A DNA stretch of 64,000 bases, from NCBI GenBank assembly GCA_963666055.2, contig CAXWPH010000014.1, positions 480,001 to 544,000 of the forward strand, given 5' to 3'. This DNA is from Acidobacteriota bacterium. GTDB taxonomy: Bacteria; Acidobacteriota; UBA890; WLXD01. The notes under the pieces were generated by a model. It searched no databases. It was not told the DNA's origin and saw only the letters and a program-made list of their open reading frames with translations. The stretch's first letter is position 1. Each line of letters begins with the position of its first letter. This document shows, in pieces, positions 34,835 through 56,211 of this stretch. The translations under genes and the position numbers were made by a program.

Positions 34835-35105
34835 GTGCTCACGGTGGACCGTTGCCGGCAGCTGCTCGAAGCAACTGATCTCTCCGAACAAGCGATCGAG
34901 GAGATCCCGCGATGCCCTTTACAGCGTCGCCCGACTCACGATGGCCGAGGTTCAGCGAGCCCATGCGCGGATTCGTATCTGTGACATCGAGGTGTTGGAG
35001 GAACGTGCCGCGATCTGCGAGTTCGAGGGTGAAATGCAGCGTGACCAAGCGGAGGACGCGGCTTTGATCCAGCTCGACGCGTGGAAGGCGCGGAAACAGC
35101 AATGA
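34835..35105 (+). CDS. Small protein coupled to the recombinase, +1 frameshift at about 34907
   Basis: LTVDRCRQLL..LSEQAIEEI|RDALY..EERAAICEFEG; ATGA overlap with the recombinase. Confidence 0.6.
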
Positions 35106-36608: not shown

Positions 36609-36645
36609 GAGGGCGGTGTCCTGGGCCAGGCTAGACGATAGGGCC
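36568..36645 (-). tRNA. tRNA-Glu(CTC)
   Basis: Full cloverleaf: CCGCC-CTCTCAA-GGCGG anticodon arm, GGTTCAAATCC, encoded CCA. Confidence 0.95.
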
Positions 36646-36735
36646 GCCAGAGGTCATAGCTACTTGAATGCCCAGGGACCCAGAGACTTTAACGAGGCTC
36701 TTTGACCGGGGCAAGCTTGCTGAGAGGCGGTGAAT

Positions 36736-38750: not shown

Positions 38751-38753
38751 GAT

Positions 38754-39575: not shown

Positions 39576-39747
39576 CGCCGCAAGAGTGTACAGGCGCATG
39601 TCGTCCCCTGCGTGCCTGTCCGTGGGAGTTTGTCCTCGGCCGGTTACCGTGCGACACTGCCGTTCGGCGAGCCGTCCCCGTTGTGCGTGGCTCCCGATCC
39701 CCTCCTGGTCTGTTCCGCCTTTCTTGTCTACATTCAGGCTTGTCGAG

Positions 39748-41145: not shown

Positions 41146-41146
41146 C

Positions 41147-41208
41147 AGAGTGCTCAAAGACTCCCGAGGGTGCCCGTAACGGCACCCCCGGGGGGCTCTC
41201 AGCACCCT
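41147..41208. repeat. Long imperfect intergenic hairpin (REP-like)
   Basis: CAGAGTGCT..GGGTGCC/GGCACCC..AGCACCCTG. Confidence 0.4.
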
Positions 41209-41291
41209 GCTGAGCGTTTCTTGGTTGCCTCTGGGCCGCCGCCCGCGCACACTGCCCGGAAGTTCGCCATTCATCGGCAACCGAGGCGCCC

Positions 41292-41732
41292 ATGGCCAAG
41301 AAAGGCCAAATCCCGGACCAGCTGCCCGCCGCGTTCGATTTCGGCCGCGTTCCCGTAAACCGCCACTTCGGGTTCTCGCTGCAGTCGGTCCGGCGCGGCA
41401 AGGCAGAGGTGGCCATGCCGCTGAAACGGTCCTTCTGGCAGGAAGAAGGCGTGGTGCACGGCGGCGTCCTTACGACACTCGCCGATACCGCGGCGGTGTA
41501 TACGATCTCCCCGTTTCTCGACGACGACCAAACGATGACGAGCATCGAGTTCAAGATGAACTTCTTGCGCCCGGCTTCGATCGATGCGGGTTCGGTTACC
41601 GCCAAGGCCAGCCTCGTACGGCAGGGCAAAACGATTGCCCTCTGCGAGGTCGACGTCATGCAGACTCGTCGACTCGTCGCCACGGGGTTGTTCACCTACT
41701 TGATCTATTCGAAGGACGAAGCCGGCAACTAG
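41292..41732 (+). CDS. PaaI-family thioesterase
   Basis: VHGGVLTTLADTA, EFKMNFLRP. Confidence 0.9.
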   Translation: MAKKGQIPDQLPAAFDFGRVPVNRHFGFSLQSVRRGKAEVAMPLKRSFWQEEGVVHGGVLTTLADTAAVYTISPFLDDDQTMTSIEFKMNFLRPASIDAGSVTAKASLVRQGKTIALCEVDVMQTRRLVATGLFTYLIYSKDEAGN

Positions 41733-41736
41733 CCTG

Positions 41737-42399
41737 ATGGGACCGCGACCGTTCGAGCCGACATTCGAGAGCTTACCGGGGGTGCTTCCGGTTTTTCCGT
41801 TGTCCGGTGCCCTCCTACTGCCGCGCTGCCGTCTCCCCCTCAACATCTTCGAGCCGCGCTACTTGCAGATGACCGAAGATGCGCTGGCCGGCGATCGTTT
41901 CATCGGCATGGTGCAGCCGCGCGATCCTGAACCGTTCGACCATCGCCCCGATATCTTCCCCACAGGCTGTGCGGGGCGCATCAGCTCCTTCAGCAAAACC
42001 GACGACGGCCGCATGCTGATTATCCTGACCGGGGTCAGCCGCTTCGACGTCGAGTCAGAGCTCGGTACCGACTCGCCGTATCGTCAGATAGTGCCGCGTT
42101 GGGACAGATATCGCTCGGATCTGATCGAGCAAGCCGACGGCGCCATCGATCGAGAGCGGCTCTACGCCTCGCTGCGTGTGTACTTCGAGTCGCGCGATCT
42201 CGACACCGATTGGGAGATGCTCGAGGAGGCCACCGACGAGCACCTGATCAACTCGTTGGCGATGTCTTGTCCTTTCGGCCCTTCCGAAAGGCAGGCTCTG
42301 CTCGAGGCCGGTGATGTGACCGAGCGTGGCCGCCTGATGCTCGCGCTCCTCGACATGGCAACCCTCGATCAGGTGGGCGGCGAGCTGCCGCTGCAGTAG
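41737..42399 (+). CDS. LON peptidase N-terminal (substrate-binding) domain protein
   Basis: LPVFPL..LPLNIFEPRY, GCAG..DGR. Confidence 0.92.
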   Translation: MGPRPFEPTFESLPGVLPVFPLSGALLLPRCRLPLNIFEPRYLQMTEDALAGDRFIGMVQPRDPEPFDHRPDIFPTGCAGRISSFSKTDDGRMLIILTGVSRFDVESELGTDSPYRQIVPRWDRYRSDLIEQADGAIDRERLYASLRVYFESRDLDTDWEMLEEATDEHLINSLAMSCPFGPSERQALLEAGDVTERGRLMLALLDMATLDQVGGELPLQ

Positions 42400-42417
42400 T
42401 TCAGGGCTCCAAACTTC

Positions 42418-43938
42418 TTACCGGCGGACGTTTTGGCGTTTTCGCAAAACCTGCCCCGGCCGCGCCCCGGTTGGCGCGCCGTCACGCCACACCAGCTCAC
42501 CGCCGACCCAGACGTACTCGATCCCGGTCGACAACAGCTCGGGCTCCTCGAACGTGCTGCGATCGCCTACCGTTCCGGGGTCGAAAGCCACCAGGTCGGC
42601 AATCGCGCCGCGCCGTACCACGCCGCGCTGCTCGAGCCCAAGGCGCTGCGCCGGCATGGAGGTCATCTTGTGCACGGCTAGCTCCAGCGACATCACCTGC
42701 TCGTCGCGGACGTAGCGCCCCAAGACGCGGGGGAAGGTGCCGGCGCCACGCGGATGGGCGCTGCCGATGCCGCCATCGCTGCACACCATGACCAACGGAC
42801 TGGCGGCGAACCGGTCGACGTCTTCGAGCTTCATGGTGTGGCCGATCACGCCGCCGCCGCCGGCCTCCATCATCTCGATGTACATTTCGACCGGGGTCTT
42901 GTTCTTAAGCTCGGCGATCTCGTCGAGCCGCAATCCTTCTACTGACGGGTCGGGTTCGTAGCGCGTTACCTGTATCCGGTTGGCACCGCCCAGCGCCGCG
43001 AGCCCTTCGGCAACGGCTTCCGGATCGCTGAAGCGGCGCGAGCGCACGACGATCGACAGCGACGAGGCCCAGGCCGGGTAGGGATACCAATCGGCCGTGA
43101 TGTCAAGGCCGCTCTGGCGCGCCGCGGCGAGCTTGTCGAGCGCCTCCTCCGATCGATCCCAAACGCTGGCGTTGCCCATCTTGATGTGTGAGATCTGCAC
43201 CGGCAGGCCGCCTTCAAACCCGATCCGAATGACTTCGTCGATGGCGTCCATGACGGTCTCTTCCTCGTCGCGCATGTGAGACATGTAAAAGCCGCCGAAG
43301 CCTGCGGCTACCTCGGCCAGTGCGATCAGCTCTTCGGTGCTCGAGTAGAAGCCGGGGTCGTATTCCAGGCCGCTCGACAGGCCGAAGGCGCCTTCTTCCA
43401 TGCCGGTACGGATGAGCTCGGCCATCTGCGTTACTTCCTGCGCCGTGGCCTGGCGCTTGAAGTCGTCGCCCATTACCTGACGGCGCGCCGTGCCGTGTCC
43501 GACCAAGGTGGCCACGTTGACCACCGGCTGCGCCGCCTCGACCTGGCGCAAGTATTCACCGACCGGCCACTGCGAGCCGCCGTCGGCGCCGCCGACGATG
43601 GTGGTGAGCCCCTGGGAGATCAGCGCCTCGGCTTGAGGTTGCCGAATGATGGCGCGGTCCGAGTGGTTGTGAATGTCGATGAATCCGGGCGCCAGCACGA
43701 GGCCGTCGAGGTCGATGACGCTCGGATTGTCACCCGGTTCCATGCGCCTGCCTTCCTCGACGCTGACGATGCGCCCGTTCTCGATCACCACGTGGCCGGT
43801 GAACGGGCGACTGTTCAGGCCGTCGACGATCGTCGCGTTGATCAGCAGCACACGGCCCTGCTGCGCGGCGCCGGAGCCGGTGATCGTGAGCACCGCGATG
43901 AACAGGCCGATGAGAATTCTGACGCTGTTAGGTCGCAT
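42418..43938 (-). CDS. D-aminoacylase family amidohydrolase, secreted
   Basis: PGFIDIHNHSD, GLSSGLEY, SHMRDE, HPRGAGTFPR. Confidence 0.92.
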   Translation of the reverse strand: MRPNSVRILIGLFIAVLTITGSGAAQQGRVLLINATIVDGLNSRPFTGHVVIENGRIVSVEEGRRMEPGDNPSVIDLDGLVLAPGFIDIHNHSDRAIIRQPQAEALISQGLTTIVGGADGGSQWPVGEYLRQVEAAQPVVNVATLVGHGTARRQVMGDDFKRQATAQEVTQMAELIRTGMEEGAFGLSSGLEYDPGFYSSTEELIALAEVAAGFGGFYMSHMRDEEETVMDAIDEVIRIGFEGGLPVQISHIKMGNASVWDRSEEALDKLAAARQSGLDITADWYPYPAWASSLSIVVRSRRFSDPEAVAEGLAALGGANRIQVTRYEPDPSVEGLRLDEIAELKNKTPVEMYIEMMEAGGGGVIGHTMKLEDVDRFAASPLVMVCSDGGIGSAHPRGAGTFPRVLGRYVRDEQVMSLELAVHKMTSMPAQRLGLEQRGVVRRGAIADLVAFDPGTVGDRSTFEEPELLSTGIEYVWVGGELVWRDGAPTGARPGQVLRKRQNVRR

Positions 43939-44190
43939 CGAGATTGTCTCCCGGGTAATTCGATTGTTGCTCGGGCACGAGTCTGCGTGGCGTTGGAGGC
44001 TTGCGCAAGGGGGGCGCGGCGCGCCGCGGAAAGGTCGTCGGCTACCGCACCGGGCGGCAGCCCGATATCCTTGTAAAAAGCAGCCTCAAGCGCCCGTCCG
44101 CCGAGGCCCCACCCTTTATATTCGAGCCGTACTTCATACGTCCCGGGCGATTTGGACACGCGTTTCTCATGATGGCTGGAGTTCTTCATT

Positions 44191-47100
44191 TTGGAGCAGA
44201 ACCGCTTTGACGTCATCGTCGTAGGCGGTGGCCCTGCCGGTATCACCGCTGCAACCGCACTCGGCCGCGCCGGGTTCTCGGTACTCGTTTGCGAGGCGGC
44301 GGTGTATCCAGGAGCCGAGAACTGGTCCGGCGCCGTTTATTTCGCCGAGAACATCGAGGCTCCGGAGGCCTTCGGCCGGGCGGCGATCGAAAGCGGTCCC
44401 ATTGAGCGCCCGCTCGTCGAGCGTGGCTTCTACTCCTACAACGGCCACTCGATGTTGGGCGCGGCACTGCGCGACCCGAAGGTGTTCCGCTCCTGCTACA
44501 CGGTTCTGCGGCCGGTTTTTGACCGCTACCTCGCTGAGCTTGCCCGCGAGCACGGCGTCGTGTTGCTGTGCGAGACCACCGTCCAGAGCCTGATCCGCCA
44601 CCAGGGCCGCATCATCGGCGTGCACACCGAGCGCGGTCCGGCCTATGCCGATGTCGTGTTCCTGGCCGAGGGCGACGCCTCGCACCTGGTGACGCAGGAG
44701 GGCTACGAGCGCGTCGGTCCGGACGCCGGCGAGGGGGGATCGGAGAGCGGCCCGCACTTCCTGCAGGGCGTGAAGGAAGTCGTTTCGCTGTCGCCCGAGA
44801 TCATCGAGGAGCGTTTCGGGCTGCCGGCCGGGGGCGGCGGCGCCTACGAAATACTGCTGCGCAACGGCACACGCCATGGCCGCACCGTGCGCCTCAACAT
44901 GGGTGGCTTCATCTACACCAATCGCGACAGCTTGTCACTGGGATTCGTGCTGCCTGTCGATAACCTGGCGGAGAATTTCGACGGCGACCACAACCTGCTG
45001 ATGGAGTGGTTCAAGGGGCTGCCGGAGATCGAGCGCTGGATTGACGGCGGCGAAGTAACTTCCTACGGCGCGAAGATCATCCGCGGCGGCGGCTTGCGTG
45101 AGATCCCGCGGCTGATCGACGATGGCCTGGCGATCGGCGGCGCCGCCAGCGGCATCGGCCTCGACTTTCCGTACCCCAACTTCACCGGCCCGGCGACGGC
45201 GATGGGCCTCTTGTTCGCCGCCGCTGTGCAGAAGATCGCCGCCGACAACGGCGGTCCGGGCGGCGGTTCCGGCGACTGTCCGTTCAGCGCCGCGGCGCTC
45301 GAGCAGACCTACGTCAGGCCGCTGCAGCGAACCCACTACTACCGCAACGTCGAGCGCCTCGCCGACTGGCCCGGGTACATCGAGCGCACCCGTTTCTTCT
45401 TCGATCAGCAGGTCGATCTCGCCAATAGCGTGGCGTTCATCGTGTCGCGTCCCGACATCTCCGCGCCGCGTCGCTGGTGGGAGGCGCTGCGCCTCGAGCG
45501 CCGGCTCATCGTGACCAAGCACTTCAAGAGCGTGCTTGCTGACTTGCGGGAGAATTCCGGGGCCCTCGGCCTCGGGCGGGCCGCCCGGGAGGGTTTTGGT
45601 ATCGGCACACCCGTGCGCTGGTTGTTCAACACCGTCTCAGCCTTGTTGCCGAGCCGCCGCACATCCATTGGCGGCGACAAGTCAACGGGTGTTGCGATCG
45701 CCACCACGCCCGGTGGCGGCGAGTTTCGTGTGACGTATCGGGTCCTGGCGGGCGCCGAGGTGCCCGGTCGTTTGCCGCTCGTTGCCCGGTGGTACTGGAA
45801 ACGCTTCGGCCCGGCGATGGGCGATGCCTTCGCCGACGTCTACACGAACGACGACGAGCCGCTGGATACCAAGTTGCCGCGTGCCTTGGGTCGTTTGATC
45901 GACCAGTTTTCCGCGTGGGATGCGGTGCTGTCCGTCGTCTCCTTGGTGGCGGGAGCCCTGACCTTGCTGGCCCAGTCTTCGATCGAGTGGTTCCAGTACG
46001 CCGTGCTGAAGAAGGATCTGTCGGCGTTTCGCGAGCAGTTCGTCGCCCGGTTGCTCGATGACAATCGCCGCCGTATCCGCCTCGATGACGACGCCGTGGA
46101 GATCAGGACGTCCTACGAGCACAAGCTCGGCACGATTCGCTATCGCGTGGGGCAGCATTCGCACATCAAAGTGCTGTGGCCCGACGATCTTGCGGCGCGT
46201 GGTGAGCTGGTCGACTCGCCGCTGTGGAACGTCTGCCCCGCCAAGGTCTACGAAGTCGATCGGAATCCGCGCGGCATGCCCGGCGTCGTCGTCAACTTCG
46301 ACAACTGTGTCAAGTGTGAGACTTGCTGGCGCGCCACCCCCGACGTGCACTGGAGTCGGGCAACGCAGCAGCGGCTGATCTACGAGACCTATACGCCGAC
46401 CCATGCCGAGCTGCGCAACTACTTGCTGACGCGGACCGAGCCGGTGGCACGTTTGCGACGGCTGCCGAGCTACTGGGAGGCGTACTGGTCGGGATCTTCC
46501 GACTTGTCGACGAGCTCCGAACAAGCGGCGCTTCTGACGGGTGTCGAGGCCGAGCTGCGTCGCTTTAGCGCGGCGCTGGACGGCTACTCACAGGCGCTCG
46601 GCGATTCGCCGCCGGCGCTGGAGCAAGGCGAGCGCTACTACCTGGAGGAACTGCTGGCCTCGGCGACGCGGCGCTTCGAAGCCGCGCGGGCGCTGTGGCA
46701 GACGGAGGCGCTGGAATCGCTGCGCGCAGCAGCCGACGGTGCGGCGGCAGTGTGGGCCGACGCCGCCGAAAGGGTGGAGGAATTGGCGCGGCACGCTGCT
46801 GCCAAGCGCTATTTCTGGTCGGACGTGGTGGGCAAGCAACTTCGCGAGCACCATGTCGAGGGACTTCTCGTTTTACTGCGGCGTGAAGCTGCCGGTGTCG
46901 ATCAACTCGCTCCGCAGCACGGGTTGCCTTCCGAACCGTGCGAGGCATGGTCGTGGATCGCCGGTTGGCCGGCCGTCGAATGCCGGCCGCTGGCATTCGA
47001 AACGCACCGCAAAACGATTCGTGACTGGTGCGACGCGCACGTCGACTCCGCCGTTCTCAACCGGCTCGAGGAGGGGCTGCCGATCAGCACGGAACTTCGC

Positions 47101-50100
47101 GACTGGCTTGCCGCGGAGCTCAGGACGGCGGTTGCGTCGGGGCGCGATGGCGAAACCTGGTCGGACCCGGCAAACCGCGCCACGCCGGCGACGCCCCGCT
47201 ACGGGCAGCGAGACGTATTGCTCGAGGAGCTCTCTGCGTGTGATCCGTCGTTGGCGGCACTGGCCGCCCAGCATCTGCTCGCCTGTGATCTGCTCGACGG
47301 TGTTGCGGCAGCCGATCCGACACTGATTGACAACCTGCGCGCCGGACGGCAGCTGGCGACTGTCGTATCGCAGGGAGCCATTTGCAACGAGCTGATCGTC
47401 TCGGGCAAGGCGGCGGAGGGTGTTGCCGCTGTGGCAGCCGAAGCGGGTGTCGAGCTTCACGGCGTAGCACCGTTGGTTGCTACGGCGTTGGCCGATTGGT
47501 TGCTCGTGGTGCGTGACAATCGCGGCTACCTAGTGCCGATCGATGACCCGGGAGTGAAGCTCGAGGACGTGGGTTGCATCGGGCTGGTCGGCGCCGCCGT
47601 GCGGCGGGTGATCTTCGACGGTTGCGTTGTACCGCCGGAACACCTCTTCGATGTTCCTTCGATCGACGAAAGGTCTGCCTTTACGGCGCCGGCCGTCGGC
47701 GAGCCGTTTGCTGATCTTCTGCGAATCGGCGTGCTCGATCACCTGGCAATCGTGCGGGGCGCGGGCACCTACTTGACGCAGCGTGCGCGTGAGCATGCCG
47801 CCACTCGGGTTCAGTTCCCCGATTCTTTCCAGGACGAGGCCGGCCGGGACACGATCGCCAAGTTCGGCGCCGTGAAGCGACTCATGGCCGAGATGGAAGC
47901 GCAGCGCATCCTGGTGGAGTCGCTCAGTATCATCGATCCGGGACCGACCGACGACCCGTGGATTGGTGCCGCGGTGCGCAAGGTCCTCGCCGCCGACGCC
48001 TTCGGGCCGAATCGAGGCTCGTTGGGCTACAACTGCGGCCAGGTGTTCGCTGGCACGGCATTTTCCGAAGACGACTGCATCGCCAAGTACTACCGCGACA
48101 GCAGTCCGTTCCGCTTCTTGCTCGCCCACGACGACGCGCTGCGTGTCGAGATCGGCCGCCGCCGACTTGCAGCAGTACGGCAGGGCAACTCTTTGGTCCC
48201 GCTGTCGCCGGGCGAGGCGGCGTGGCTCGGTGCCCTGGGTGACGAAGCTCCTTTGGCCGCCGCGGTGCCGCGCTGGGAGGCAGCCTGCGCCAAGATCGAC
48301 GGGTGGGCCGATAGCGTCGCGGCGGCCGACGAACCAATGGCCGAGCTCCTGTGCTTTCAAGCCGGCGGCGTGGTTGCGTCGGCGTTGGCTGTCAAGGTCT
48401 GTCTGTTGCGCACCGGTTGGCGTCTCGAGTCCGGTTTGCCTGCCCAGGCGACGCGCGCAGCGACCAACCTTCTCAACGACGAGTTCTGTGCCGCCGTTCC
48501 GGGGGTCATCGACGATGCTCAACTTCTTGCTGAAACTCTCGAAGTCGGTGACGAGACGATCATCCACGGCGATTTCGAGCCCGCCGCCGACATCGCCGAC
48601 GCGGAGCCCTATCGCGCCGTGCTCGAGACCGATCACGGTGCCGATTCCGGAGAATGGCTGGTCGGAGGTTTCGACGGCGAGCGACTCCGCTACGTGCCCG
48701 AGATCCTGTGGAACGACCCGGAGCTAGGCGCGTTTCGCGACAGGGTGGAGGCGGAGCAGCGACGGCGCTACGTCGAGCCACGCTTCGACGGGCTGACGTA
48801 CAACCGGTATCTCGAGAAGCTGCACATCGTGCCGCGCGATGATCTCGACTACCTGGTTGACGAAGGCTTCCTGCGCATGCCGATCCCGACGTCGCTCGGC
48901 GGTGAAGGGGTACTGAAGGCGCTCTACTACATCGTCTGCGAGATGACGGGTCGCTACGGCGACGCGGCGCTGTCGCTGGCCATAATGGCCAACACGAGTA
49001 TCGGCACGACGCCCATGCTCCTCGGTCTCAAACAGGACCTGCCGCGCGCCCGCGCCGAGCTCGAGAGGGTCAAGGGCGACCCGACGCTGCTCGGCGAGAT
49101 ACACGACGGCCTCGACAAGCTGATCGCCGGCATGGCGCGTCCCGATCTCGAGGCGCTGCAGCGTGACTACCTGGCGCTGATGGAGCTGGTCAAGGCGCGC
49201 ATCGTCAAGTCGAGCGTGCTCAAGTACATCGGCGGCGGCTTCCTGCGCGCTTTCTTCGCCGCCGGACAGGCCGGCGAGCAGCGTGACCTCGACAGCTTTG
49301 CCGACAACCTGCGGCAAGCCCGCGAGCGTCTCGACGAGATCCTCGAAGGTGTCGAGGACCGGCTCATCGAGTACCCGCGCCGCGAGCGGGCGCACGAGCT
49401 GTTCTTGAAGATGATCTCGGCCGGCTACATCTCGGCCTTCGCGCTCACCGAGCCGACTGCAGGATCCGACTCGGGCGGCGTGAAGACATCGGCGCGCCTT
49501 GATCGGCGGCGCGTCTATTGCGACGACGACGGCGTCCTGTACTTCTGGCTCGACGATAAGGCCGAAAGCGAACGGCGCAACCTCCTCGACGCCGACCGGG
49601 TTGGGTTCGACTTCGATCGCCACAAGATGCTCTATCGCTTCTCAGAAGACGCCGAAGCTGCGGAGATCAACCACGACGCCTTCGACTACGACAGCCGGGA
49701 GCTGCCGAGCAAGTGGCGCACCTATCGTCACGGTGATCGCGACGTTGCGTTCACCGACATCGCGCAGATTCGTGAGGATGAGGCCGGTGACCTCTGGTAC
49801 GAGTACTGGGAGCTCAACGGCGTCAAGATGTGGATCACCAACGGGCGCTTCGCCCATTGCTTCGCGCTGTACGCCACGACCGAGCCGGAGGGCGTTACCG
49901 GTTTCATGGTCGACCGCCACGCCGAGGGCATGGTGGTCGGCGCCGACGAAGAGAAGCTCGGCCAGCGTGCCTCGCCCACCAACGAGTTGTCGCTCACCGG
50001 AGTGCGCGTGCCGCGCGAGTGCATCATCGGTTTCCGCGGCCGCGGCCAGGTCAACGCCCTCGAAACGCTGAATACCGGGCGTACCGGCTTGGCGGTGACG

Positions 50101-52941
50101 GCGCGCTCCGGTATCCAGGAAATACTCGAGGACGCAGTGGCGTTCTTCAGCGAGACGCGACCCAGCGCGTACCCGAAGCAGGGAGCGCCGGCGACCGCGC
50201 TGCAGACCTACTGGATGGGACGCCTTACCGAGGAGCTCATCGGCACCGCCGCCGTTGCCAACGAGCTGATCGGCCTGTTCGACCATCCACTAACCAAGAA
50301 CGTGCGCATGGAGTCAGCGATCGGCAAGTACTACGGCAGCGAGGCGCTGCACGACGGCATCGAGTGGATGGAGCGATTGCGTGGGCTCGATGGCTTGACC
50401 CACCGCCATCGCATCGAGAAGACGCGCCGTGACGCGCGGGTGCTCAACATCTACGAAGGCACCAACGAAGTTCAGCGCTACCTGTTGTTGCGCGACCTGG
50501 CGCAGCGCGTGCTGCCGGCGTGGAAGGCGGCTCAGAAAGATAGCGACGGCGCGGAAGTAGACACGGCCGGCGCGCATCCCGATCTGCGCCGGCAGCTAGA
50601 GGACGTCAAGCAGCGCCTGATGTCACGGCTGCAGGACGCCGACGCGGCGTTCGGCCAACTCATCTGGTCGAACGTCAATCTACAGCCGTGCTTCTTTTGG
50701 CTGGCCGAGATTTCCGGCCTCATCAAGGTGATGGACGCGGTGCTGTATCGCCTCGAATGGCTGGCCGCCCACGACGTGGCCGCCGTGTACCGCGAGCGCC
50801 TCGAGCGCGCTTCGCGCCTGGCATTTCGCCGTTGCGGGGTGCGCATCGACACGCTCGAGCGTTTGTTCACTGCTGCCCACGCCTATCTGCAGGACGGGCG
50901 CTACCCGCCGGATGTGCAGCTCGGGTTCCTGGCTCTCGACGAGGCCGGCGTCATCGCCGAGGCGTGGGGGGTCATGCCCGCGTCGCGTCGCCCGCAGCCG
51001 GAACTACCGCCGCTGGCCGACGATGTGCGCATCGTCGTACTCATCAAGTCGGTGCCCTCGGTTGCCCCGCGGCCGCGGGTCGGCCATGAGTCGTTCGAGG
51101 AATCGCTGCACTCAATCGACCAGGTCGACGTCCGATCGCTGCAGATGGCGCTCGATCTCAAGCGCCGAGATCCGGCGCGGGTAACCGTGGCCGCTTATAC
51201 GCTGGCTGGGGCCACCGGCAACGAGGCACTCCGCCAGGCATTGGCGATGGGAGCCGACGAAGCGCAGATTCTGGTGGGTGGCGAGACGGTACCGGTTCAA
51301 GACCCCGCCCGGGTGGCGCGCATTGTCGGAGGTTGGCTGCAGGACAAGCCGGCCGACATCGTGTTCTGCGGCGCCGCCGCTTCGGACACCTCGCAAGGTA
51401 TCGTCGGCCCCGCACTCGCCGGTGCTCTGGGCCGTGAGTTTCTCGCCGGCGTTACGGAAGTGCGCTGGAGTCCGGCGCCGGAGCCGCTGTTGCACGTCGG
51501 CGCAAGCGGTTGGCAAGGTCACCACATCGATGTGCCGGTGCCCTGCGTCATCGCGACGGCGGCGCACGCCGAGCACGCCGAGGCCGAATACCGGGTCGGT
51601 GGTTTCGTGGCCGCGTTAGCGGCAGCAATCGGCAGGCTCGAGGCCCGCGATTCGGAAGTCGGTGCTTTGCGTGTTGCCCACGTGCCTCGTGCCATTGCCG
51701 GCGGCGGCACTACGGTTCAGATCGCCCGCACGCCGGAGGATGCCGCCGATGTGTTGTTGCGCACGTCCGGGCTGACCGATGCGGTGTCGAGTTCCGAGGC
51801 CGATTCCTACGCCGGCGATCCGGCCGGCTTCGGCCAGCAGCCGGAAGACCCGTCTCCTGTCTGCCTGTTCGTTTGCGCGCCTGTGGCCGCCACCGACATG
51901 GAATCGTCCACGCAGGCGTCCCTGGAATCGGCTGCTCGTCTGGCGGCCGGCGTCGACTTGCCGCTGGACGTGGTGTTGCCGGTGACGGGTCCCGAGGCTC
52001 TCGCTGCGGGAGTGGGGCAGGTGATTGCCGATGTCGGGCCACGGCGCATCTATGTGCTGGAGCAGGCCGACATCGATCGGCTCGGCTACCGAGGTCACAT
52101 CGAGTGGCTCGAGGAGTTCTGGGGCATGTACCGTGGCCAGCCCGAATGGCTGCTCGGGCCGGAATGGGCACGCACGCTGTTCGCCTACTTCGGCGGCCAG
52201 GGACCGCCCGCCGTAGAAAGGAGCTGGTCCTGGTTCGGTGTCGAGCGGGTGAGCAATGGTGGACCGGAGATCCGACTCGGCACATCCATTCTCGACGGTG
52301 CGGCTCGCGCCGTCGCGACGGTGCCGAAAACAGGCGGCTTGCGCATCGTCACGTTTGCCGGCGCCGCCGCAATCGATCTGCCGGACATCGCGAGCTCCGC
52401 TGATGCGACGCAAGTGTTTGCCTACCAACCGCGGCTCGACTACGACCTCGCGTCCGATCCGGCGGCGGCTCTGATGAGTCGCCTGGGCGGCGGAGAGCTG
52501 ACGCTGCAGGCGGCCGAATACATCGTCGATTTCGGCTATGGCGCCGGGGGTCGGGAGGGCCTCGCGGAACTCGCCGAGCCGCTCTTGAGCATCCTGGCAG
52601 ACGAGCTCGGGCTGCCCAACGCGATGATCGGCGCGACGCGCAAGGTCACGCAAGATCTCGAAGTGCTGCCCATGGATCGCCAGATCGGACAGACCGGTGT
52701 GCGTGTACACCCCAAGGTGCTGGTAGCGCTGGCAGTTTCAGGCGCCCCGCAACACGTCGACTGGATCGACGACGAGACTGTCATCCTCGCCTTCAACGTC
52801 GACCCCGACGCGCCCCTGATGAGGCTCAACGAGCAGCGCCCGAATCCGGTGGTTCATCCGATCGTGGGTGACGTTTGGGAAACCATCCCGCGGTTTATGG
52901 CCGCCCTGCGCGCGGGCGAGCGGGCGCAAGGATCGCGATGA
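44191..52941 (+). CDS. 2916-aa fusion: FixC-like flavoprotein / FixX ferredoxin / two acyl-CoA dehydrogenase domains / EtfB / EtfA
   Basis: GGGPAG; CPAKVY..NCVKCETC; QF..IAKFGAV..YYRD; FALTEP..GSD, KMWITNG, IYEGTNE; ALAMGAD, FCG..D..GIVG; RQIGQTG..SGAPQH. Confidence 0.92.
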   Translation: MEQNRFDVIVVGGGPAGITAATALGRAGFSVLVCEAAVYPGAENWSGAVYFAENIEAPEAFGRAAIESGPIERPLVERGFYSYNGHSMLGAALRDPKVFRSCYTVLRPVFDRYLAELAREHGVVLLCETTVQSLIRHQGRIIGVHTERGPAYADVVFLAEGDASHLVTQEGYERVGPDAGEGGSESGPHFLQGVKEVVSLSPEIIEERFGLPAGGGGAYEILLRNGTRHGRTVRLNMGGFIYTNRDSLSLGFVLPVDNLAENFDGDHNLLMEWFKGLPEIERWIDGGEVTSYGAKIIRGGGLREIPRLIDDGLAIGGAASGIGLDFPYPNFTGPATAMGLLFAAAVQKIAADNGGPGGGSGDCPFSAAALEQTYVRPLQRTHYYRNVERLADWPGYIERTRFFFDQQVDLANSVAFIVSRPDISAPRRWWEALRLERRLIVTKHFKSVLADLRENSGALGLGRAAREGFGIGTPVRWLFNTVSALLPSRRTSIGGDKSTGVAIATTPGGGEFRVTYRVLAGAEVPGRLPLVARWYWKRFGPAMGDAFADVYTNDDEPLDTKLPRALGRLIDQFSAWDAVLSVVSLVAGALTLLAQSSIEWFQYAVLKKDLSAFREQFVARLLDDNRRRIRLDDDAVEIRTSYEHKLGTIRYRVGQHSHIKVLWPDDLAARGELVDSPLWNVCPAKVYEVDRNPRGMPGVVVNFDNCVKCETCWRATPDVHWSRATQQRLIYETYTPTHAELRNYLLTRTEPVARLRRLPSYWEAYWSGSSDLSTSSEQAALLTGVEAELRRFSAALDGYSQALGDSPPALEQGERYYLEELLASATRRFEAARALWQTEALESLRAAADGAAAVWADAAERVEELARHAAAKRYFWSDVVGKQLREHHVEGLLVLLRREAAGVDQLAPQHGLPSEPCEAWSWIAGWPAVECRPLAFETHRKTIRDWCDAHVDSAVLNRLEEGLPISTELRDWLAAELRTAVASGRDGETWSDPANRATPATPRYGQRDVLLEELSACDPSLAALAAQHLLACDLLDGVAAADPTLIDNLRAGRQLATVVSQGAICNELIVSGKAAEGVAAVAAEAGVELHGVAPLVATALADWLLVVRDNRGYLVPIDDPGVKLEDVGCIGLVGAAVRRVIFDGCVVPPEHLFDVPSIDERSAFTAPAVGEPFADLLRIGVLDHLAIVRGAGTYLTQRAREHAATRVQFPDSFQDEAGRDTIAKFGAVKRLMAEMEAQRILVESLSIIDPGPTDDPWIGAAVRKVLAADAFGPNRGSLGYNCGQVFAGTAFSEDDCIAKYYRDSSPFRFLLAHDDALRVEIGRRRLAAVRQGNSLVPLSPGEAAWLGALGDEAPLAAAVPRWEAACAKIDGWADSVAAADEPMAELLCFQAGGVVASALAVKVCLLRTGWRLESGLPAQATRAATNLLNDEFCAAVPGVIDDAQLLAETLEVGDETIIHGDFEPAADIADAEPYRAVLETDHGADSGEWLVGGFDGERLRYVPEILWNDPELGAFRDRVEAEQRRRYVEPRFDGLTYNRYLEKLHIVPRDDLDYLVDEGFLRMPIPTSLGGEGVLKALYYIVCEMTGRYGDAALSLAIMANTSIGTTPMLLGLKQDLPRARAELERVKGDPTLLGEIHDGLDKLIAGMARPDLEALQRDYLALMELVKARIVKSSVLKYIGGGFLRAFFAAGQAGEQRDLDSFADNLRQARERLDEILEGVEDRLIEYPRRERAHELFLKMISAGYISAFALTEPTAGSDSGGVKTSARLDRRRVYCDDDGVLYFWLDDKAESERRNLLDADRVGFDFDRHKMLYRFSEDAEAAEINHDAFDYDSRELPSKWRTYRHGDRDVAFTDIAQIREDEAGDLWYEYWELNGVKMWITNGRFAHCFALYATTEPEGVTGFMVDRHAEGMVVGADEEKLGQRASPTNELSLTGVRVPRECIIGFRGRGQVNALETLNTGRTGLAVTARSGIQEILEDAVAFFSETRPSAYPKQGAPATALQTYWMGRLTEELIGTAAVANELIGLFDHPLTKNVRMESAIGKYYGSEALHDGIEWMERLRGLDGLTHRHRIEKTRRDARVLNIYEGTNEVQRYLLLRDLAQRVLPAWKAAQKDSDGAEVDTAGAHPDLRRQLEDVKQRLMSRLQDADAAFGQLIWSNVNLQPCFFWLAEISGLIKVMDAVLYRLEWLAAHDVAAVYRERLERASRLAFRRCGVRIDTLERLFTAAHAYLQDGRYPPDVQLGFLALDEAGVIAEAWGVMPASRRPQPELPPLADDVRIVVLIKSVPSVAPRPRVGHESFEESLHSIDQVDVRSLQMALDLKRRDPARVTVAAYTLAGATGNEALRQALAMGADEAQILVGGETVPVQDPARVARIVGGWLQDKPADIVFCGAAASDTSQGIVGPALAGALGREFLAGVTEVRWSPAPEPLLHVGASGWQGHHIDVPVPCVIATAAHAEHAEAEYRVGGFVAALAAAIGRLEARDSEVGALRVAHVPRAIAGGGTTVQIARTPEDAADVLLRTSGLTDAVSSSEADSYAGDPAGFGQQPEDPSPVCLFVCAPVAATDMESSTQASLESAARLAAGVDLPLDVVLPVTGPEALAAGVGQVIADVGPRRIYVLEQADIDRLGYRGHIEWLEEFWGMYRGQPEWLLGPEWARTLFAYFGGQGPPAVERSWSWFGVERVSNGGPEIRLGTSILDGAARAVATVPKTGGLRIVTFAGAAAIDLPDIASSADATQVFAYQPRLDYDLASDPAAALMSRLGGGELTLQAAEYIVDFGYGAGGREGLAELAEPLLSILADELGLPNAMIGATRKVTQDLEVLPMDRQIGQTGVRVHPKVLVALAVSGAPQHVDWIDDETVILAFNVDPDAPLMRLNEQRPNPVVHPIVGDVWETIPRFMAALRAGERAQGSR

Positions 52942-52954
52942 CTGCGTTGCGCTT

Positions 52955-53000
52955 GATTCGAGTGCTCGACGTACATTAAGTACGCCTGCGCGCTCGAATC
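52955..53000. repeat. Intergenic hairpin between convergent genes
   Basis: GATTCGAG..CGTAC-ATTAA-GTACG..CTCGAATC. Confidence 0.5.
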
Positions 53001-53091
53001 TGCGCGCGCCTTGTCCTCGCGAGCCTTGCGCCCGCTCGCCTCTACCGGCGCTTGGCTACGACCCGGCCGTGCCTGCTCGCTTCACGACCCT

Positions 53092-53301
53092 TTAGCGGCG
53101 CTTGGCTACCACCCATAGCGAGTTGTGCTCGCCGGTGTCGAAGTTCGCGCCCTTTGATTCGAGCTCCTCGACGGTGAGGTTGTAGGTGGCGCCGTCGGCG
53201 TAGGCGAGCAGCAGACGCCCGCACTCATCACAGGTGGCGATGTCGCGGTGCTTCGCCAGATTCTTCTCAGCTTCTTGCTCGCAGCAGTGCTTCAGGGGCA
53301 T
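53092..53301 (-). CDS. Small Cys-rich hypothetical protein
   Basis: HCC..CDECG; codon usage looks coding. Confidence 0.65.
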   Translation of the reverse strand: MPLKHCCEQEAEKNLAKHRDIATCDECGRLLLAYADGATYNLTVEELESKGANFDTGEHNSLWVVAKRR

Positions 53302-53402
53302 GTCGGGTGATGGCGCTTCCACCAGTCTGTGAAACGAGGGCTCGAACCATTGTAGTCTGTATCCAGAGCTGCGGTTTCCAGCTGACTAAGAGTCAATCTG
53401 TG

Positions 53403-53746
53403 ATGCGCAATCTCAAGGCAGCCACGGCGGTTTGCGGCGTCATCGGGGCGTTGGCGGTCGCAATTGTTACTCCGCTGGCCATCGCCGCGGCCAGTGGGCC
53501 ATCTTGCAGCGCGACCGGCTCGCCAGCCTGCGCCGCTATTACGACCAGAGCACCGTGCGCATCGGTGAGTCGATGCAGCTGGAGATCGGCGGCCGTACGC
53601 TCAACGTGCGACGTCTCCACATCAGTGGGCCGATTCGTACCGGTTACGTCAACGAGTTCGGCCACGTGGTTCGCCTCGATCTCGATCCCGACCCGTGGAC
53701 GCGGAACGACCGCCACATTCGGATGCTCTTTCCGTCGGAGTACTAG
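53403..53746 (+). pseudogene. Internally deleted paralog of the next gene
   Basis: Signal peptide in one frame; C-terminus LDPDPWTRNDRHIRMLFPSEY in another. Confidence 0.6.
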
Positions 53747-53786
53747 CCGGCCATGGTGCTGAAAAACTGCGTACGGCAGTAGCCTC

Positions 53787-54812
53787 ATGTTTCTCGCCCG
53801 CCCGACGCCGATCCTGACTCTCGTCATCTGGTCGCTGGTCACCGGTGGCGCGACGCCGCCGGCCGCGCCGGTGACCAAGGCGCAGTACAGCGAGGTGTTC
53901 GGGTATCAACTCGGGGAGGAGCGCCATTACATCCTCGAGCCCGACAAGGCGCTGCGCCCGGGGGAGCACGGCATGTGGAGCATTCGCTTCGCAGACGTCG
54001 CCGGTGAAGGCGAGGACCTGAGGTTCATCTTCAATCTGGAGCACGAGCGCAGCGAGCTGATTCGGGACATGTTCGGCGGCCTTTCCGGCCGCCTTCAGAC
54101 AATCCGCGTCGAGTCCGTCCTTACGCTCAACGCTTTCGGGTTCCCGCTGCGTGTGGTGATGAGCGAGCAGCACGAAGTCGCCGGCGAACGCCGCACCGAG
54201 AGCGACATGCGAACCACGATCTTCACGTTCGACGGCGAGCGCTACACCAAGGCCGTGCGCATCGAAGGCCGCGAGTGGCGCTTTCCGATCAGCATCGCCA
54301 AGAACAAGGATCTCAACCTCGAAAGCCGAACCGGTCTGTACACGTTTCTGCCCTCGGCGCTGCGCTGTATGGGCCAGCCGGCGATGATCGGCAGGCCGCG
54401 GCGCTGTGAAGAGGGCGACATCACGTTCGCCAACCCGGGGTTGTTGAGCATCGTGATTCCGGTTCTGCGGGAGGAGAAGGTCAACAAGCGCGAGTTCCTG
54501 TTCTTCAAGCCGGCGGGCGTGGGCACGATGCCGGCCGGGCTGATGGACATGAGCGGCTGGGTGCGACGCGAACGCGACACGCAGCGCAGCATCTCGCGCT
54601 ACTTCGACAAGATGACCATCGAGTTCGAAGCGTACGAAGAGGGCGTCGAGATGGGCGTGCGCACGGTGAGCGCGTGGCGAGTCGAAGCCAGCGGCTCGAT
54701 GCGCAAGTTCTGGGTCGACGCCGAAGACCGGGTCATCAAGGTCGAGCTCGACCCGCACCCGCGCACCAACCAGAAGCGCTGGATCCGCATGCTGTACCCT
54801 TCGGAGTACTGA
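53787..54812 (+). CDS. Secreted hypothetical protein
   Basis: Signal peptide, beta-rich, ends LDPHPRTNQKRWIRMLYPSEY. Confidence 0.8.
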   Translation: MFLARPTPILTLVIWSLVTGGATPPAAPVTKAQYSEVFGYQLGEERHYILEPDKALRPGEHGMWSIRFADVAGEGEDLRFIFNLEHERSELIRDMFGGLSGRLQTIRVESVLTLNAFGFPLRVVMSEQHEVAGERRTESDMRTTIFTFDGERYTKAVRIEGREWRFPISIAKNKDLNLESRTGLYTFLPSALRCMGQPAMIGRPRRCEEGDITFANPGLLSIVIPVLREEKVNKREFLFFKPAGVGTMPAGLMDMSGWVRRERDTQRSISRYFDKMTIEFEAYEEGVEMGVRTVSAWRVEASGSMRKFWVDAEDRVIKVELDPHPRTNQKRWIRMLYPSEY

Positions 54813-54887
54813 CGAGCCCGACCAAGCGCAATGCCCCAGAGGCGGGCTTCTCGGTGCCCGTAGCAGGAGAGCGTTGAGATGTGCGGG

Positions 54888-55892
54888 CTAGCGTTCGATC
54901 GGCCGGGCGCGGCGCGGGCCCTCTGATTGGCCGTTGAGCGTCCAGTCGTAGTCGATGAAGCGGACGCGTAGCGAGTCGCGATTCTCGCGGATCCAGACGG
55001 CCTCGTCGGCCGGGGCGTATTGCAACACCCAGTCCACGACGTCGTTCTTCTCGGCCTCGAAATCACCGCCGTACCAGTCGAAGTAGCTCGACAGGTACAG
55101 GATGTTCTCTTCTCGATCGATCTGCAGGGCGCGCGGGCTGCTCAAGAACTCGAGCGATAGCTCTGTCATCAGCGGGTCGAGGTCCTCGGCGACATAGGGC
55201 CGGCGCAATAGCCGTGGGCAGCCGAAAGCGCCGCACACCAGCGTCCAGTGGAGCCGAGCGTCGGGAAAATCAGCGCGCAGGATGTCGTGCTCGATGTTGT
55301 CGAGCGTGCGGTCGACACCGCCGACGCGGTTCTCCTGCTTGAAGAAACCGGCGACCAGGCCGAACAGCCGATCCAGATCGCGAACGCTGTCGAGCGGGTA
55401 ACGCTCGACCACCTGCCACACGACGACCGCGTTGTAGGCGTTCATCCAGAACGCCATCTTCTCGTTGTCGCTCGCCAGCCTGTCGGGGTCGACGTTGCCG
55501 ATGGCCTCGATGAACGTTTGCAGGTCGGCGCGCCCGGGGCCGGTGAGCCCCTCGTAGTCGACCAAACCCTCACCGTCGACGTAGTCCTCGAGCACACGCG
55601 CCCACGGGTCGTAAAGCGGGTTGTCGGTGCCGATCTCTGCCCAGGTCTGGCGGGAGAGTTGTGCCTCGGCGCCGGCGCTCTCATCCTCACTCGGGGTCAT
55701 CTGCGCGCCCGCCGCGTCCGCCGTGGGCTTTTCGCCGGCCGCAGCAGTGGCGGAACCCGCGTTCGGTGTCGAGGCGTCGGCCCTTTGTGCGGCGGGGGGA
55801 GCGGGAGTGTCCCCTTGGCATGCAGCCGCCACAAGAATCAGGCCCGGCACCAGCACTGCAAGCGCGGCGATCGAAAGTCGTCGTCGGAACAT
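54888..55892 (-). CDS. DUF547-domain lipoprotein
   Basis: Lipobox AAAC, AFWMNAYNA, LDNIEH, DARLHW.LVCGAFGCP, YDWTLN. Confidence 0.92.
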   Translation of the reverse strand: MFRRRLSIAALAVLVPGLILVAAACQGDTPAPPAAQRADASTPNAGSATAAAGEKPTADAAGAQMTPSEDESAGAEAQLSRQTWAEIGTDNPLYDPWARVLEDYVDGEGLVDYEGLTGPGRADLQTFIEAIGNVDPDRLASDNEKMAFWMNAYNAVVVWQVVERYPLDSVRDLDRLFGLVAGFFKQENRVGGVDRTLDNIEHDILRADFPDARLHWTLVCGAFGCPRLLRRPYVAEDLDPLMTELSLEFLSSPRALQIDREENILYLSSYFDWYGGDFEAEKNDVVDWVLQYAPADEAVWIRENRDSLRVRFIDYDWTLNGQSEGPRRARPIER

Positions 55893-55974
55893 CGCGGAGT
55901 CCTTAATTCGTGGGGTGCAGGCGGTGGCCTGCGGAGATCCTACAGGCTAGTTGGCGCCGCGAGGAGTTTCGGTT

Positions 55975-56211
55975 TCAGTCGATTCCGAGTCGCTCGCCCA
56001 GCCAATCAGCGTCGAAGCCGACGATCACCTCACCGTCGACAACTACGGTCGGGGTGGCGGCCGGCCCGCCGGTGACGGCGCGTAGCTCACCCATCGGATC
56101 GTCGAAATCTTCGATGTGGATCTCCTCGAATGCGACGTCGTGCCGGCGAAGGAACTCCTTCGCTTGCTCGCACGGCATTCAGTAACGGCTCGTGTAAACC
56201 TGGATATCCAT
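55975..56211 (-). CDS. Glutaredoxin/NrdH-like selenoprotein (UMPC)
   Basis: MDIQVYTSRY-TGA-MPCEQAKEFL..TP..GFD; TGA at 56179-56181; hairpin downstream. Confidence 0.85.
56140..56173 (-). promoter_or_regulatory. Bacterial SECIS-like hairpin
   Basis: GTGC..GCGAAGG-AGTT-CCTTCGC..GCAC; loop about 23 nt after the UGA. Confidence 0.65.

What the first reader, a model, noticed from the sequence alone, without database searches (positions are those of the whole stretch)
47000..50950. Tandem ACADs in the fusion: one degenerate, one catalytic with two large insertions
Seen: ACAD-1 keeps the partner-side FAD region (RVQF..IAKFGAVKRLMAEM, GQVFAGTAF..YYRD) but has FRFLLAHDD where the catalytic IYEGTNE belongs, and lacks FALTEP. 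ACAD-2 keeps FALTEP/GSD, KMWITNG and IYEGTNE but its QFG and GG.G motifs are eroded. ACAD-2 also has a helical insertion of roughly 130 aa before FALTEP and an aromatic/acidic insertion of roughly 100 aa after it. Known: mycobacterial heteromeric ACADs (ChsE1-ChsE2 type) build one FAD site from complementary subunits and act on bulky substrates. Inference: an intramolecular pseudo-heterodimer with a single active site.
Basis: partly seen in the sequence, partly recalled or inferred. Interest (0 to 1): 0.7.

Follow-up and report, generated by a model that had tools for sequence, protein, structure and literature searches.

The report
Single-site fused acyl-CoA dehydrogenase pair
Inside one 2,916-residue bacterial protein that also carries its own electron shuttle and quinone reductase, two acyl-CoA dehydrogenase domains have lost complementary halves of their flavin-binding sites, so together they likely form a single active site that likely performs the first step of fatty-acid breakdown.

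Summary
Observation confirmed. The two ACAD domains lie in an intact 2,916-aa FixC-FixX-ACAD1-ACAD2-EtfB-EtfA protein (44191-52941). In 121 aligned homologues, ACAD-1 keeps the partner-side FAD residues (R1206 119, Q1284 120, G1288 121) and has no Glu at the catalytic slot (0). ACAD-2 keeps the flavin-ring residues and E2089 (121) and has lost the partner-side loop (deleted in 90). In 31 homologues ACAD-1 has lost its whole middle domain. The ChsE comparison fits the division of labour, not the family. Both halves have the dimeric VLCAD/FadE fold with its extra C-terminal bundle and a VLCAD-position Glu. Bulky substrates are unsupported. Genomes point to ordinary beta-oxidation: in a Nitrospirota class, 24/24 carriers have FadB and only 1/24 has a full stand-alone FadE (10/15 non-carriers do). 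Both insertions are real and conserved; their function is unknown. Nine literature searches found no description. This scan reported the same fusion at least seven times on other DNA. New variant of a known kind.

The parts
44191..52941 (+). Whole gene, 2,916 aa: FixC-FixX-ACAD1-ACAD2-EtfB-EtfA
   Evidence: no indel inside the frame in public contigs; 137/137 stored homologues over 2,200 aa hold both ACAD types
44191..45420 (+). FixC / ETF:quinone oxidoreductase FAD domain (residues 1-410)
   Evidence: T. maritima FixC 7koe_C, E 1e-28; PRK10015/PRK10157 below cut-off
45421..46110 (+). Helical extension with one hydrophobic segment (578-596), candidate membrane anchor (inferred)
   Evidence: a hydropathy peak of 1.8-2.5 at the equivalent place in 5 of 5 proteins scanned; no family above cut-off
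46111..46425 (+). FixX/ETF-QO-type iron-sulfur domain with four Cys (682, 706, 709, 712): one [4Fe-4S] cluster predicted
   Evidence: Pfam Fer4_ETF_QO; Cys in 116-117/121; 7koe_D and 2gmh alignments
46993..48165 (+). ACAD-1 core (935-1325): non-catalytic half; keeps partner-side FAD residues R1206, Q1284, G1288; no Glu at slot 1311
   Evidence: ACAD fold in model
48166..48570 (+). ACAD-1 C-terminal helical bundle of VLCAD/FadE type
   Evidence: model 1-526 aligns over 441-464 residues to EpxF, FadE2, FadE5 (Z 17.5-20.1); bundle to 2oku_B, Z 11.4, 115 of 116 residues, rmsd 2.5; reduced to a median of 53 aa in the short class
48688..50505 (+). ACAD-2 core (1500-2105): catalytic half; flavin-ring contacts, CoA-side R1964, catalytic E2089 (50455-50457)
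   Evidence: E2089 in 191/192
49027..49380 (+). Insertion 1 (1613-1730), four-helix bundle; function unknown
   Evidence: 100-119 aa in 118/121; model; Z about 11 to unrelated four-helix bundles, a common arrangement
49501..49794 (+). Insertion 2 (1771-1868), acidic/aromatic all-beta subdomain; function unknown
   Evidence: 54-102 aa in 121/121; 16 positions conserved in at least 80%, D1856 121/121; no Pfam or NCBIfam match
50506..50976 (+). ACAD-2 C-terminal helical bundle of VLCAD/FadE type
   Evidence: ACAD-2 model aligns to residue 762 with VLCAD/ACAD9 (Z 27.7-28.9, 506-519 residues) and to 738 with FadE 3owa (Z 30.9, 499)
51013..51720 (+). EtfB-like domain; nucleotide-binding loop eroded
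   Evidence: loop columns 2397-2402 variable, gapped in 34-54 of 121
51808..52920 (+). EtfA: divergent domain I and well-conserved FAD domain II
   Evidence: R2817, Q2831, Q2834 in 117/121, H2855 in 116/121

Best explanation
The two domains are the halves of a VLCAD/FadE-type acyl-CoA dehydrogenase dimer joined in one chain, with complementary FAD residues conserved on each, and they likely build a single active site that likely oxidises fatty acyl-CoA and would pass the electrons through the attached ETF to the attached quinone reductase. Shown: the complementary conservation, the VLCAD-type fold of both halves, the domain order, and the co-occurrence with FadB. Inferred: ACAD-2 holds the flavin ring and substrate and removes the alpha proton with E2089. 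ACAD-1 holds the ADP half of the same FAD with R1206, Q1284 and G1288, and its invariant acidic loop (E1293, D1295) lines the face where the ETF docks, opposite E1920 of ACAD-2, the probable counterpart of MCAD Glu212. The symmetry-related second site is empty, which freed ACAD-1's front and middle domains to decay. Electrons would run FAD -> ETF FAD -> [4Fe-4S]/FixC FAD -> quinone, so the gene replaces FadE + EtfAB + ETF-QO. The pair probably arose by tandem duplication of a FadE-type gene. The two insertions are most likely docking or scaffold surfaces for the other modules, not catalytic parts.
For: Mirror-image conservation in 121 homologues and in 223 ACAD-1 and 192 ACAD-2 domains from 330 stored proteins (Glu at 1311 in 0 of 192 filled rows; E2089 191/192). 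Mean conservation is 0.25-0.35 in ACAD-1's front and middle domains and 0.62 in its C-domain; the middle domain has a median of 21 aa in 31/121. Two-domain model pLDDT 86.7, pTM 0.86; methylsuccinyl-CoA dehydrogenase superposes across both domains as one rigid body (model 279-1179, 439 residues, rmsd 4.5). VLCAD-type fold. With the catalytic loop left out, both halves fall outside a 97-support group holding most short ACADs, and one ACAD-1+ACAD-2 clade is not rejected (p-AU 0.64). Beta-oxidation: in 39 genomes of one Nitrospirota class, 24 carry the fusion. A FadB-type dehydrogenase is in 24/24 carriers and 4/15 others (E cut-off 1e-24 chosen after seeing the gap). A full-length stand-alone FadE is in 1/24 carriers and 10/15 others (2/24 and 11/15 with partial hits). 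In 8 of 8 carrier FadB loci fetched (8 of 24) the ligase-thiolase-FadB cluster has no ACAD. In the window's own order, full-length FadE hits are in 0/26 genomes, against 6/15 elsewhere in the phylum, 8/15 with two partial hits. Precedent for split sites and for the Glu212-ETF salt bridge: PMC11153573 (passages, section 11).
Against: No biochemistry. The interface was not scored and no FAD was modelled; the single-chain model cannot exclude a swap between two chains. Homologues and genomes are kin, so the counts are not independent; incomplete genomes can hide FadE (the own-order sample includes bins of 55-88% completeness). Carriers also have other ACADs and ETFs (12 other ACAD loci in the own genome), so the fusion is not the only candidate for any step. 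Genes next to the fusion give no substrate hint. The two trees disagree on where ACAD-1 sits (beside short Glu-less ACADs on a long branch; among VLCAD types), on 128-152 columns with quick searches. The Glu212 equivalence and the role of the acidic loop rest on recalled MCAD numbering. L124 has Glu at slot 1311.
Confidence: 0.72

Rival explanations
1. Same complementary halves, but paired between chains: ACAD-1 of one molecule completes ACAD-2 of another, giving a two-site dimer of the giant protein.
For: ACADs are normally oligomers, and the heteromeric ones are alpha2beta2 (PMC11153573, passages). Sequence conservation cannot tell intra- from inter-chain pairing. The short class has lost most of ACAD-1's C-terminal bundle.
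Against: The single chain folds with pTM 0.86. The roughly 40-residue connector is conserved (Y1474 120, G1487 120, L1490 121 of 121) and modelled at pLDDT 84-95 against ACAD-2. Both halves carry the bundle found in dimeric enzymes (PMC11890623, passages).
Confidence: 0.12
2. A ChsE-type enzyme for steroid or other bulky ring-bearing acyl-CoA.
For: Same division of labour as ChsE1-E2 and ChsE4-E5 (PMC11153573, passages). 43/121 homologues have a Pro at the start of helix E (1592), the region linked to wide cavities in that paper. Insertion 1 follows helix E and could reshape the cavity.
Against: Catalytic Glu in the VLCAD/MCAD position, helix-G slot Gly in 121/121; the query has no Pro in 1589-1601. 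ChsE4 scores Z 19.9 against 21-27 for other ACADs in the same search, and FadE/VLCAD lead. No steroid-pathway genes seen among recurring neighbours (most read by eye, not by family scan). The fusion tracks FadB and alternates with FadE.
Confidence: 0.07
3. The protein runs like FixABCX or Bcd-EtfAB: it takes NADH at a bifurcating ETF, or reduces enoyl-CoA, rather than oxidising acyl-CoA.
For: The quinone module is closest to FixC of a bifurcating complex. Best EtfB matches include bifurcating ETFs. A Thr-x-Gln remnant of the bifurcating-type loop survives in close homologues.
Against: The first Asp of that loop is 100% conserved in both ETF classes (PMC8958531, passages) and is Ala here; the loop is gapped in 34-54 of 121. 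Only one Fe-S cluster is predicted. Having both an ACAD and a quinone reductase fits a downhill chain. Co-occurs with FadB.
Confidence: 0.07
4. ACAD-1 is a second working dehydrogenase with a relocated base.
For: The query has E1171 near the start of helix G, where one profile alignment puts the helix-G region. E1293 is invariant. L124 has Glu at 1311.
Against: E1171 is in 23/121 with 54 gaps; by the ungapped VLCAD register the slot is 1180/1181 (Glu 0 and 2 of 121). E1293 lies on the partner-facing loop. The flavin-ring loop is missing, the middle domain is absent in 31/121, and ACAD-2 lacks the residues needed to complete such a site.
Confidence: 0.02

Closest known systems
Dimeric VLCAD / ACAD9 / bacterial FadE acyl-CoA dehydrogenases (PDB 3b96, 2uxw, 8phe, 3owa, 2z1q, 8pns)
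   Same: Four-domain fold with C-terminal helical bundle in both halves; catalytic Glu on the J-K loop.
   Different: Those are symmetric homodimers with one FAD per protomer (PMC11890623, passages). Here the two protomers are one chain with one predicted site, ACAD-2 has two extra subdomains, and ETF and quinone reductase are attached.
Heteromeric alpha2beta2 ACADs ChsE1-ChsE2, ChsE4-ChsE5 (4x28), Tcur3481-3483 (6wy8), PimC-PimD
   Same: One subunit gives flavin ring, base and substrate site; the other gives the ADP half (PMC11153573, passages).
   Different: Separate short subunits, helix-G Glu, steroid substrates (for the Chs enzymes), no C-terminal bundle; lower structural scores. A convergent solution rather than membership.
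FadE34 (ChsE3) and CasC
   Same: Recalled, not verified: single genes with two fused ACAD domains and complementary half-sites. If right, intramolecular half-site ACADs are already known.
   Different: Recalled as about 710-aa steroid enzymes of the ChsE lineage without ETF or FixC. The primary papers were not held; passages read do not describe the architecture.
ACAD -> EtfAB -> ETF-QO chain, and FixABCX/EtfABCX (7koe, 2gmh, 1efv)
   Same: All modules present and in frame.
   Different: Normally four or five polypeptides. A fused EtfB-EtfA is published (PMC12042025, passages and section 21); the six-module chain was not found in nine searches.

Membership tests
Acyl-CoA dehydrogenase (ACAD-2) | Three-domain ACAD fold | tested here: met
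   Z 23-27, about 370 of 380 residues, rmsd 2.1-2.7
Acyl-CoA dehydrogenase (ACAD-2) | Catalytic Glu and flavin-ring contacts | tested here: met
   E2089, T1753, S1759, W1881, T1883 in 120-121/121
Acyl-CoA dehydrogenase (ACAD-2) | Partner-side ADP-binding Arg, Gln, Gly on the same subunit | tested here: not met
   loop short or deleted in 90/121; 2062 variable; 2066 Leu/Ile/Pro
Acyl-CoA dehydrogenase (ACAD-1 as an active enzyme) | Catalytic Glu at the J-K loop or helix G | tested here: not met
   0/121 at 1311; 0 and 2/121 at 1180/1181; 23/121 at 1171 in the alternative register; one exception, L124
Dimeric VLCAD/FadE type | Extra C-terminal helical bundle | tested here: met
   both halves, in predicted models
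Dimeric VLCAD/FadE type | Symmetric homodimer with two FAD sites | tested here: not met
   half-sites are complementary by sequence; stoichiometry itself not measured
Dimeric VLCAD/FadE type | Long-chain acyl-CoA substrate | not testable with these tools
   indirect only: alternates with FadE, tracks FadB
ChsE-type alpha2beta2 heteromeric ACAD | Complementary half-sites on two ACAD folds | tested here: met
ChsE-type alpha2beta2 heteromeric ACAD | LCAD-position (helix G) catalytic Glu | tested here: not met
   G1963 in 121/121; feature from PMC11153573 passages
ChsE-type alpha2beta2 heteromeric ACAD | Helix-E proline that widens the cavity | tested here: inconclusive
   absent in the query, P1592 in 43/121; mapping to LCAD Pro132 is by position only
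ChsE-type alpha2beta2 heteromeric ACAD | Two separate genes forming a tetramer | tested here: not met
   one frame here; 137/137 long homologues hold both halves; shorter hits could not be told from contig fragments
ChsE-type alpha2beta2 heteromeric ACAD | Descent from the ChsE lineage | not tested
   no ChsE sequence was in the trees
Bifurcating ETF (FixAB type) | Conserved six-residue nucleotide-binding loop in EtfB starting with Asp | tested here: not met
   Ala at that place; loop variable or gapped; definition from PMC8958531 passages
FixC/ETF-QO quinone reductase | FAD domain plus [4Fe-4S] domain | tested here: met
   NCBIfam scores are below whole-protein cut-offs

The most novel reading that the evidence does not exclude
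A whole respiratory branch compressed into one asymmetric machine. A FadE homodimer was fused head to tail and deliberately lost one of its two active sites, so that one tethered ETF serves one flavin and delivers to one quinone reductase. The dead half is shrinking to a bare ADP-binding bundle in some lineages. The two ACAD-2 insertions are new docking platforms that take over partner recognition from an ETF whose nucleotide site has decayed, and may also recruit FadAB into a membrane-bound beta-oxidation complex. The ETF swing between donor and acceptor could then be watched in a single polypeptide.
Probability: 0.35. Interest if true: 0.75.

Novelty: new variant of a known kind. Interest (0 to 1): 0.52.

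Why it matters
How ETF finds and shuttles between its dehydrogenase and its quinone reductase is studied through transient complexes of separate proteins; PMC11890623 (passages) says little is understood about how bacterial ACAD flavin is re-oxidised. A one-chain version with one predicted active site fixes the stoichiometry and makes the whole path open to cryo-EM and single mutations. It also shows half-site division of labour arising in the VLCAD/FadE lineage, apparently independently of the steroid ChsE enzymes, with natural intermediates of decay. For annotation, it explains ligase-thiolase-FadB clusters that seem to lack FadE, and ACAD-1 is invisible to Pfam and NCBIfam in this protein. 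The chemistry itself is probably ordinary, which limits the score.

Tried and rejected
Complex prediction of ACAD-1 with ACAD-2 and FAD: tool not available, nothing folded. Single-sequence PDB, Pfam and NCBIfam searches of ACAD-1 found nothing; a profile was needed (Pfam C-domain in 20/25 members). (profile comparison) was an artefact of fragments in A4 and is discarded; redone. One search had an indexing bug and is replaced. The genome-contig scan used generic ACAD patterns: 5 of 80 loci were family members, the rest served as outgroups. The ESM Atlas gave only ACAD clusters at 0.85-0.86, leads only (homologue P0122). The insertions match no family and not the protein's other helical parts; they could not be folded alone, so the fold of insertion 2 is untested, not new. 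Stand-alone ACAD-1 or ACAD-2 genes: none recognised, but short hits could not be told from contig fragments. The nearest unrelated hits of the ACAD-1 profile are 331-409-aa ACADs mostly lacking the catalytic Glu, at 44-64 bits, probably a selection effect of the profile. The careful tree did not finish; quick trees used. Neighbour genes as substrate clue: amidohydrolase, DUF547, LON domain and thioesterase near the own order's copies, unrelated genes in Nitrospirota; rejected. Expression: no RNA holder listed. Literature searches found no description of the fusion or the split pair; most subscription papers are not in the library, four primary ChsE/FadE papers were not held, and no supplements were read, so a mention in a genome paper's tables could be missed.
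Full report
Setting. Family and structure searches give the order FixC (1-410), a four-Cys iron-sulfur domain (641-745), ACAD-1 (935-1460), ACAD-2 (1500-2262), EtfB (2275-2510) and EtfA (to 2910). Public contigs from two studies cover the frame with substitutions but no listed indel inside it (one study may be the window's source). A search with residues 930-2260 returned 407 long homologues, of which 120 were stored; the closest named ones are labelled Acidobacteriota, others Verrucomicrobiae, Nitrospirota, Planctomycetes and Gemmatimonadota. All 137 stored proteins over 2,200 aa contain both ACAD types. The gene is in 22/25 other genomes of the window's order and 0/15 other genomes of the phylum; in a wider draw 13/201, all in that order; and in 24/39 genomes of one Nitrospirota class.

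The observation. In the 121-row alignment ACAD-1 keeps the residues that one ACAD subunit lends to its neighbour's FAD (roles from established ACAD structure, recalled; register from the VLCAD alignments): R1206 119, Q1208 119, Q1284 120, G1288 121. The catalytic slot 1311 is never Glu (0/121; 0 of 192 filled rows among 223 domains). The flavin-ring loop aligns mostly to gaps (low posterior there). ACAD-2 is the mirror image: F1750, T1753, S1759, W1881, T1883, R1964, E2089 and E2093 are in 120-121/121, while the partner-side loop is under 20 residues in 90/121 and position 2066 is Leu, Ile or Pro. Against this: L124 has Glu at 1311 (1 of 17 extra loci); three domains have Glu at 1312; the query has E1171 (23/121) and R1990 near lost slots. 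None is conserved. The strongest sign that ACAD-1 has no site of its own is that 31/121 homologues have cut its middle domain to a median of 21 residues while keeping the C-domain.

Structure. AlphaFold2 on residues 935-2130 (54 sequences) gave pLDDT 86.7 and pTM 0.86; ACAD-2 alone gave 88.3 and 0.88. ACAD-2 superposes on ordinary ACADs over about 370 residues despite the insertions, and with its tail it matches FadE 3owa (Z 30.9, 499 residues) and VLCAD/ACAD9 (Z 27.7-28.9, 506-519). ACAD-1 with its tail matches EpxF, FadE2 and FadE5 over 441-464 residues, and its profile's best PDB hit is VLCAD (E 5e-9). Both halves are therefore of the dimeric four-domain type described in PMC11890623 (passages). 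ChsE4 scored Z 19.9. Insertion 1 is a four-helix bundle and insertion 2 an all-beta subdomain; both are conserved and match no family. Packing of the two halves is supported by the high pTM and by methylsuccinyl-CoA dehydrogenase superposing across both, but I had no coordinates and no interface score, so the shared FAD is inferred.

Origin. On 128-152 columns each half is its own group (support 100). With the catalytic loop included, ACAD-2 joined VLCAD types and ACAD-1 sat on a long branch near Glu-less short ACADs (74 rows). With it removed, ACAD-1 joined VLCAD types and a joint clade was not rejected (p-AU 0.64, 40 rows). The two profiles align end to end, tails included (472 columns, E 1e-4, probability 56%). 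Tandem duplication of a FadE-type gene fits; it is not shown.

What it does. Flanking genes say nothing. Whole genomes do. In the Nitrospirota class a FadB-type dehydrogenase occurs in 24/24 carriers and 4/15 others (threshold set after viewing; one search shows the matching hydratase frames of about 710 aa). A full-length stand-alone FadE occurs in 1/24 and 10/15. The three genomes with neither hydratase nor dehydrogenase have neither FadE nor the fusion. Eight carrier FadB loci (8 of 24) all show ligase-thiolase-FadB without an ACAD. In the own order FadE is found in 0/26, against 6/15 elsewhere, 8/15 with partial hits, and the own genome has FadB-like genes. These genomes are kin and partly incomplete, and they hold other ACADs and ETFs, so this is a pointer, not proof. 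The ETF's FAD domain is intact, while the EtfB nucleotide loop lacks the Asp that PMC8958531 (passages) gives as 100% conserved in both ETF classes, which argues against bifurcation. E1920 (121/121) is the probable counterpart of MCAD Glu212, which pairs with the ETF Arg (PMC11153573, section 11; equivalence recalled). The invariant E1293/D1295 on ACAD-1 would supply the other side of the docking face (inference).

Comparison with what is known. It works like the alpha2beta2 ChsE enzymes, where one subunit binds the flavin ring, base and substrate and the other the ADP half (PMC11153573, passages), but it fails their tests on Glu position, gene structure and fold type. Fused two-domain ACADs (FadE34, CasC) are recalled as precedent for intramolecular half-sites; I could not read the primary papers. 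Fused EtfB-EtfA is published (PMC12042025, passages and section 21). Also seen as passages only: PMC3578206, PMC6678751, PMC13753135, PMC6429209, none describing this protein. Nine searches found no account of the six-module chain. This scan's own notes list the fusion seven times on other DNA; they are unchecked and were read after my analysis.

Verdict. Real, conserved, apparently undescribed in the papers searched; a new variant of known parts. One shared site about 0.9; pairing within one chain about 0.8; fatty-acyl-CoA oxidation about 0.75; whole explanation 0.72. Interest 0.52.

Noticed in passing
window 36600-56000 (G000:C14 about 516,700-536,000) versus G000:C15:991,400-1,013,000: The genome holds a second, syntenic copy of the fusion and its neighbours (53% protein identity). 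The C15 copy matches same-genus genomes (76-95% DNA), while the window's copy is 86-92% identical to G012 of another family. More 50-72% duplicates follow to the end of C14. This part of the contig may be chimeric or a large acquired block.
   Followed up: partly
window 35081-36630: Serine-recombinase-like gene in two overlapping frames (35081-36052, 35943-36608) in lower-GC DNA, ending at what looks like a tRNA 3' end; read depth left of 36,600 is near zero in four runs that cover the rest, as for an integrated element or an assembly join.
   Followed up: partly
window 47818-47856 (residues 1210-1222): A 9-residue insert in ACAD-1 relative to VLCAD, right after R1206, with D1215 in 119/121 and D1220 in 113/121; the equivalent loop is deleted in ACAD-2. 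It may cap the adenine end of FAD or contact another module.
   Followed up: partly
window 46426-46992 (residues 746-934): Poorly conserved, probably helical linker of about 190 aa between the iron-sulfur domain and ACAD-1, with no family match.
   Followed up: no
window 53787-54812 (+): 341-aa protein with no Pfam match, found downstream of the fusion in 13 of 20 loci from the same order.
   Followed up: no
proteins P0292, P0295, P0306, P0309, P0313, P0316, P0320, P0323, P0324, P0327-P0329: Stand-alone 331-381-aa ACADs that keep the partner-side FAD residues but lack the usual catalytic Glu and score higher on short-chain ACAD models than on PimD or IpdE2 where tested: possibly further, undescribed non-catalytic subunits.
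   Followed up: partly
L134-L141 (Nitrospirota class): Conserved cluster DEAD-box helicase, acyl-CoA ligase, thiolase, FadB in 8 of 8 loci, with no ACAD.
   Followed up: yes
G047:C2:134053-134298: A fusion-type EtfA domain in a 219-aa frame in a genome without an ACAD-1 hit: possibly a remnant or fragment of the fusion.
   Followed up: no
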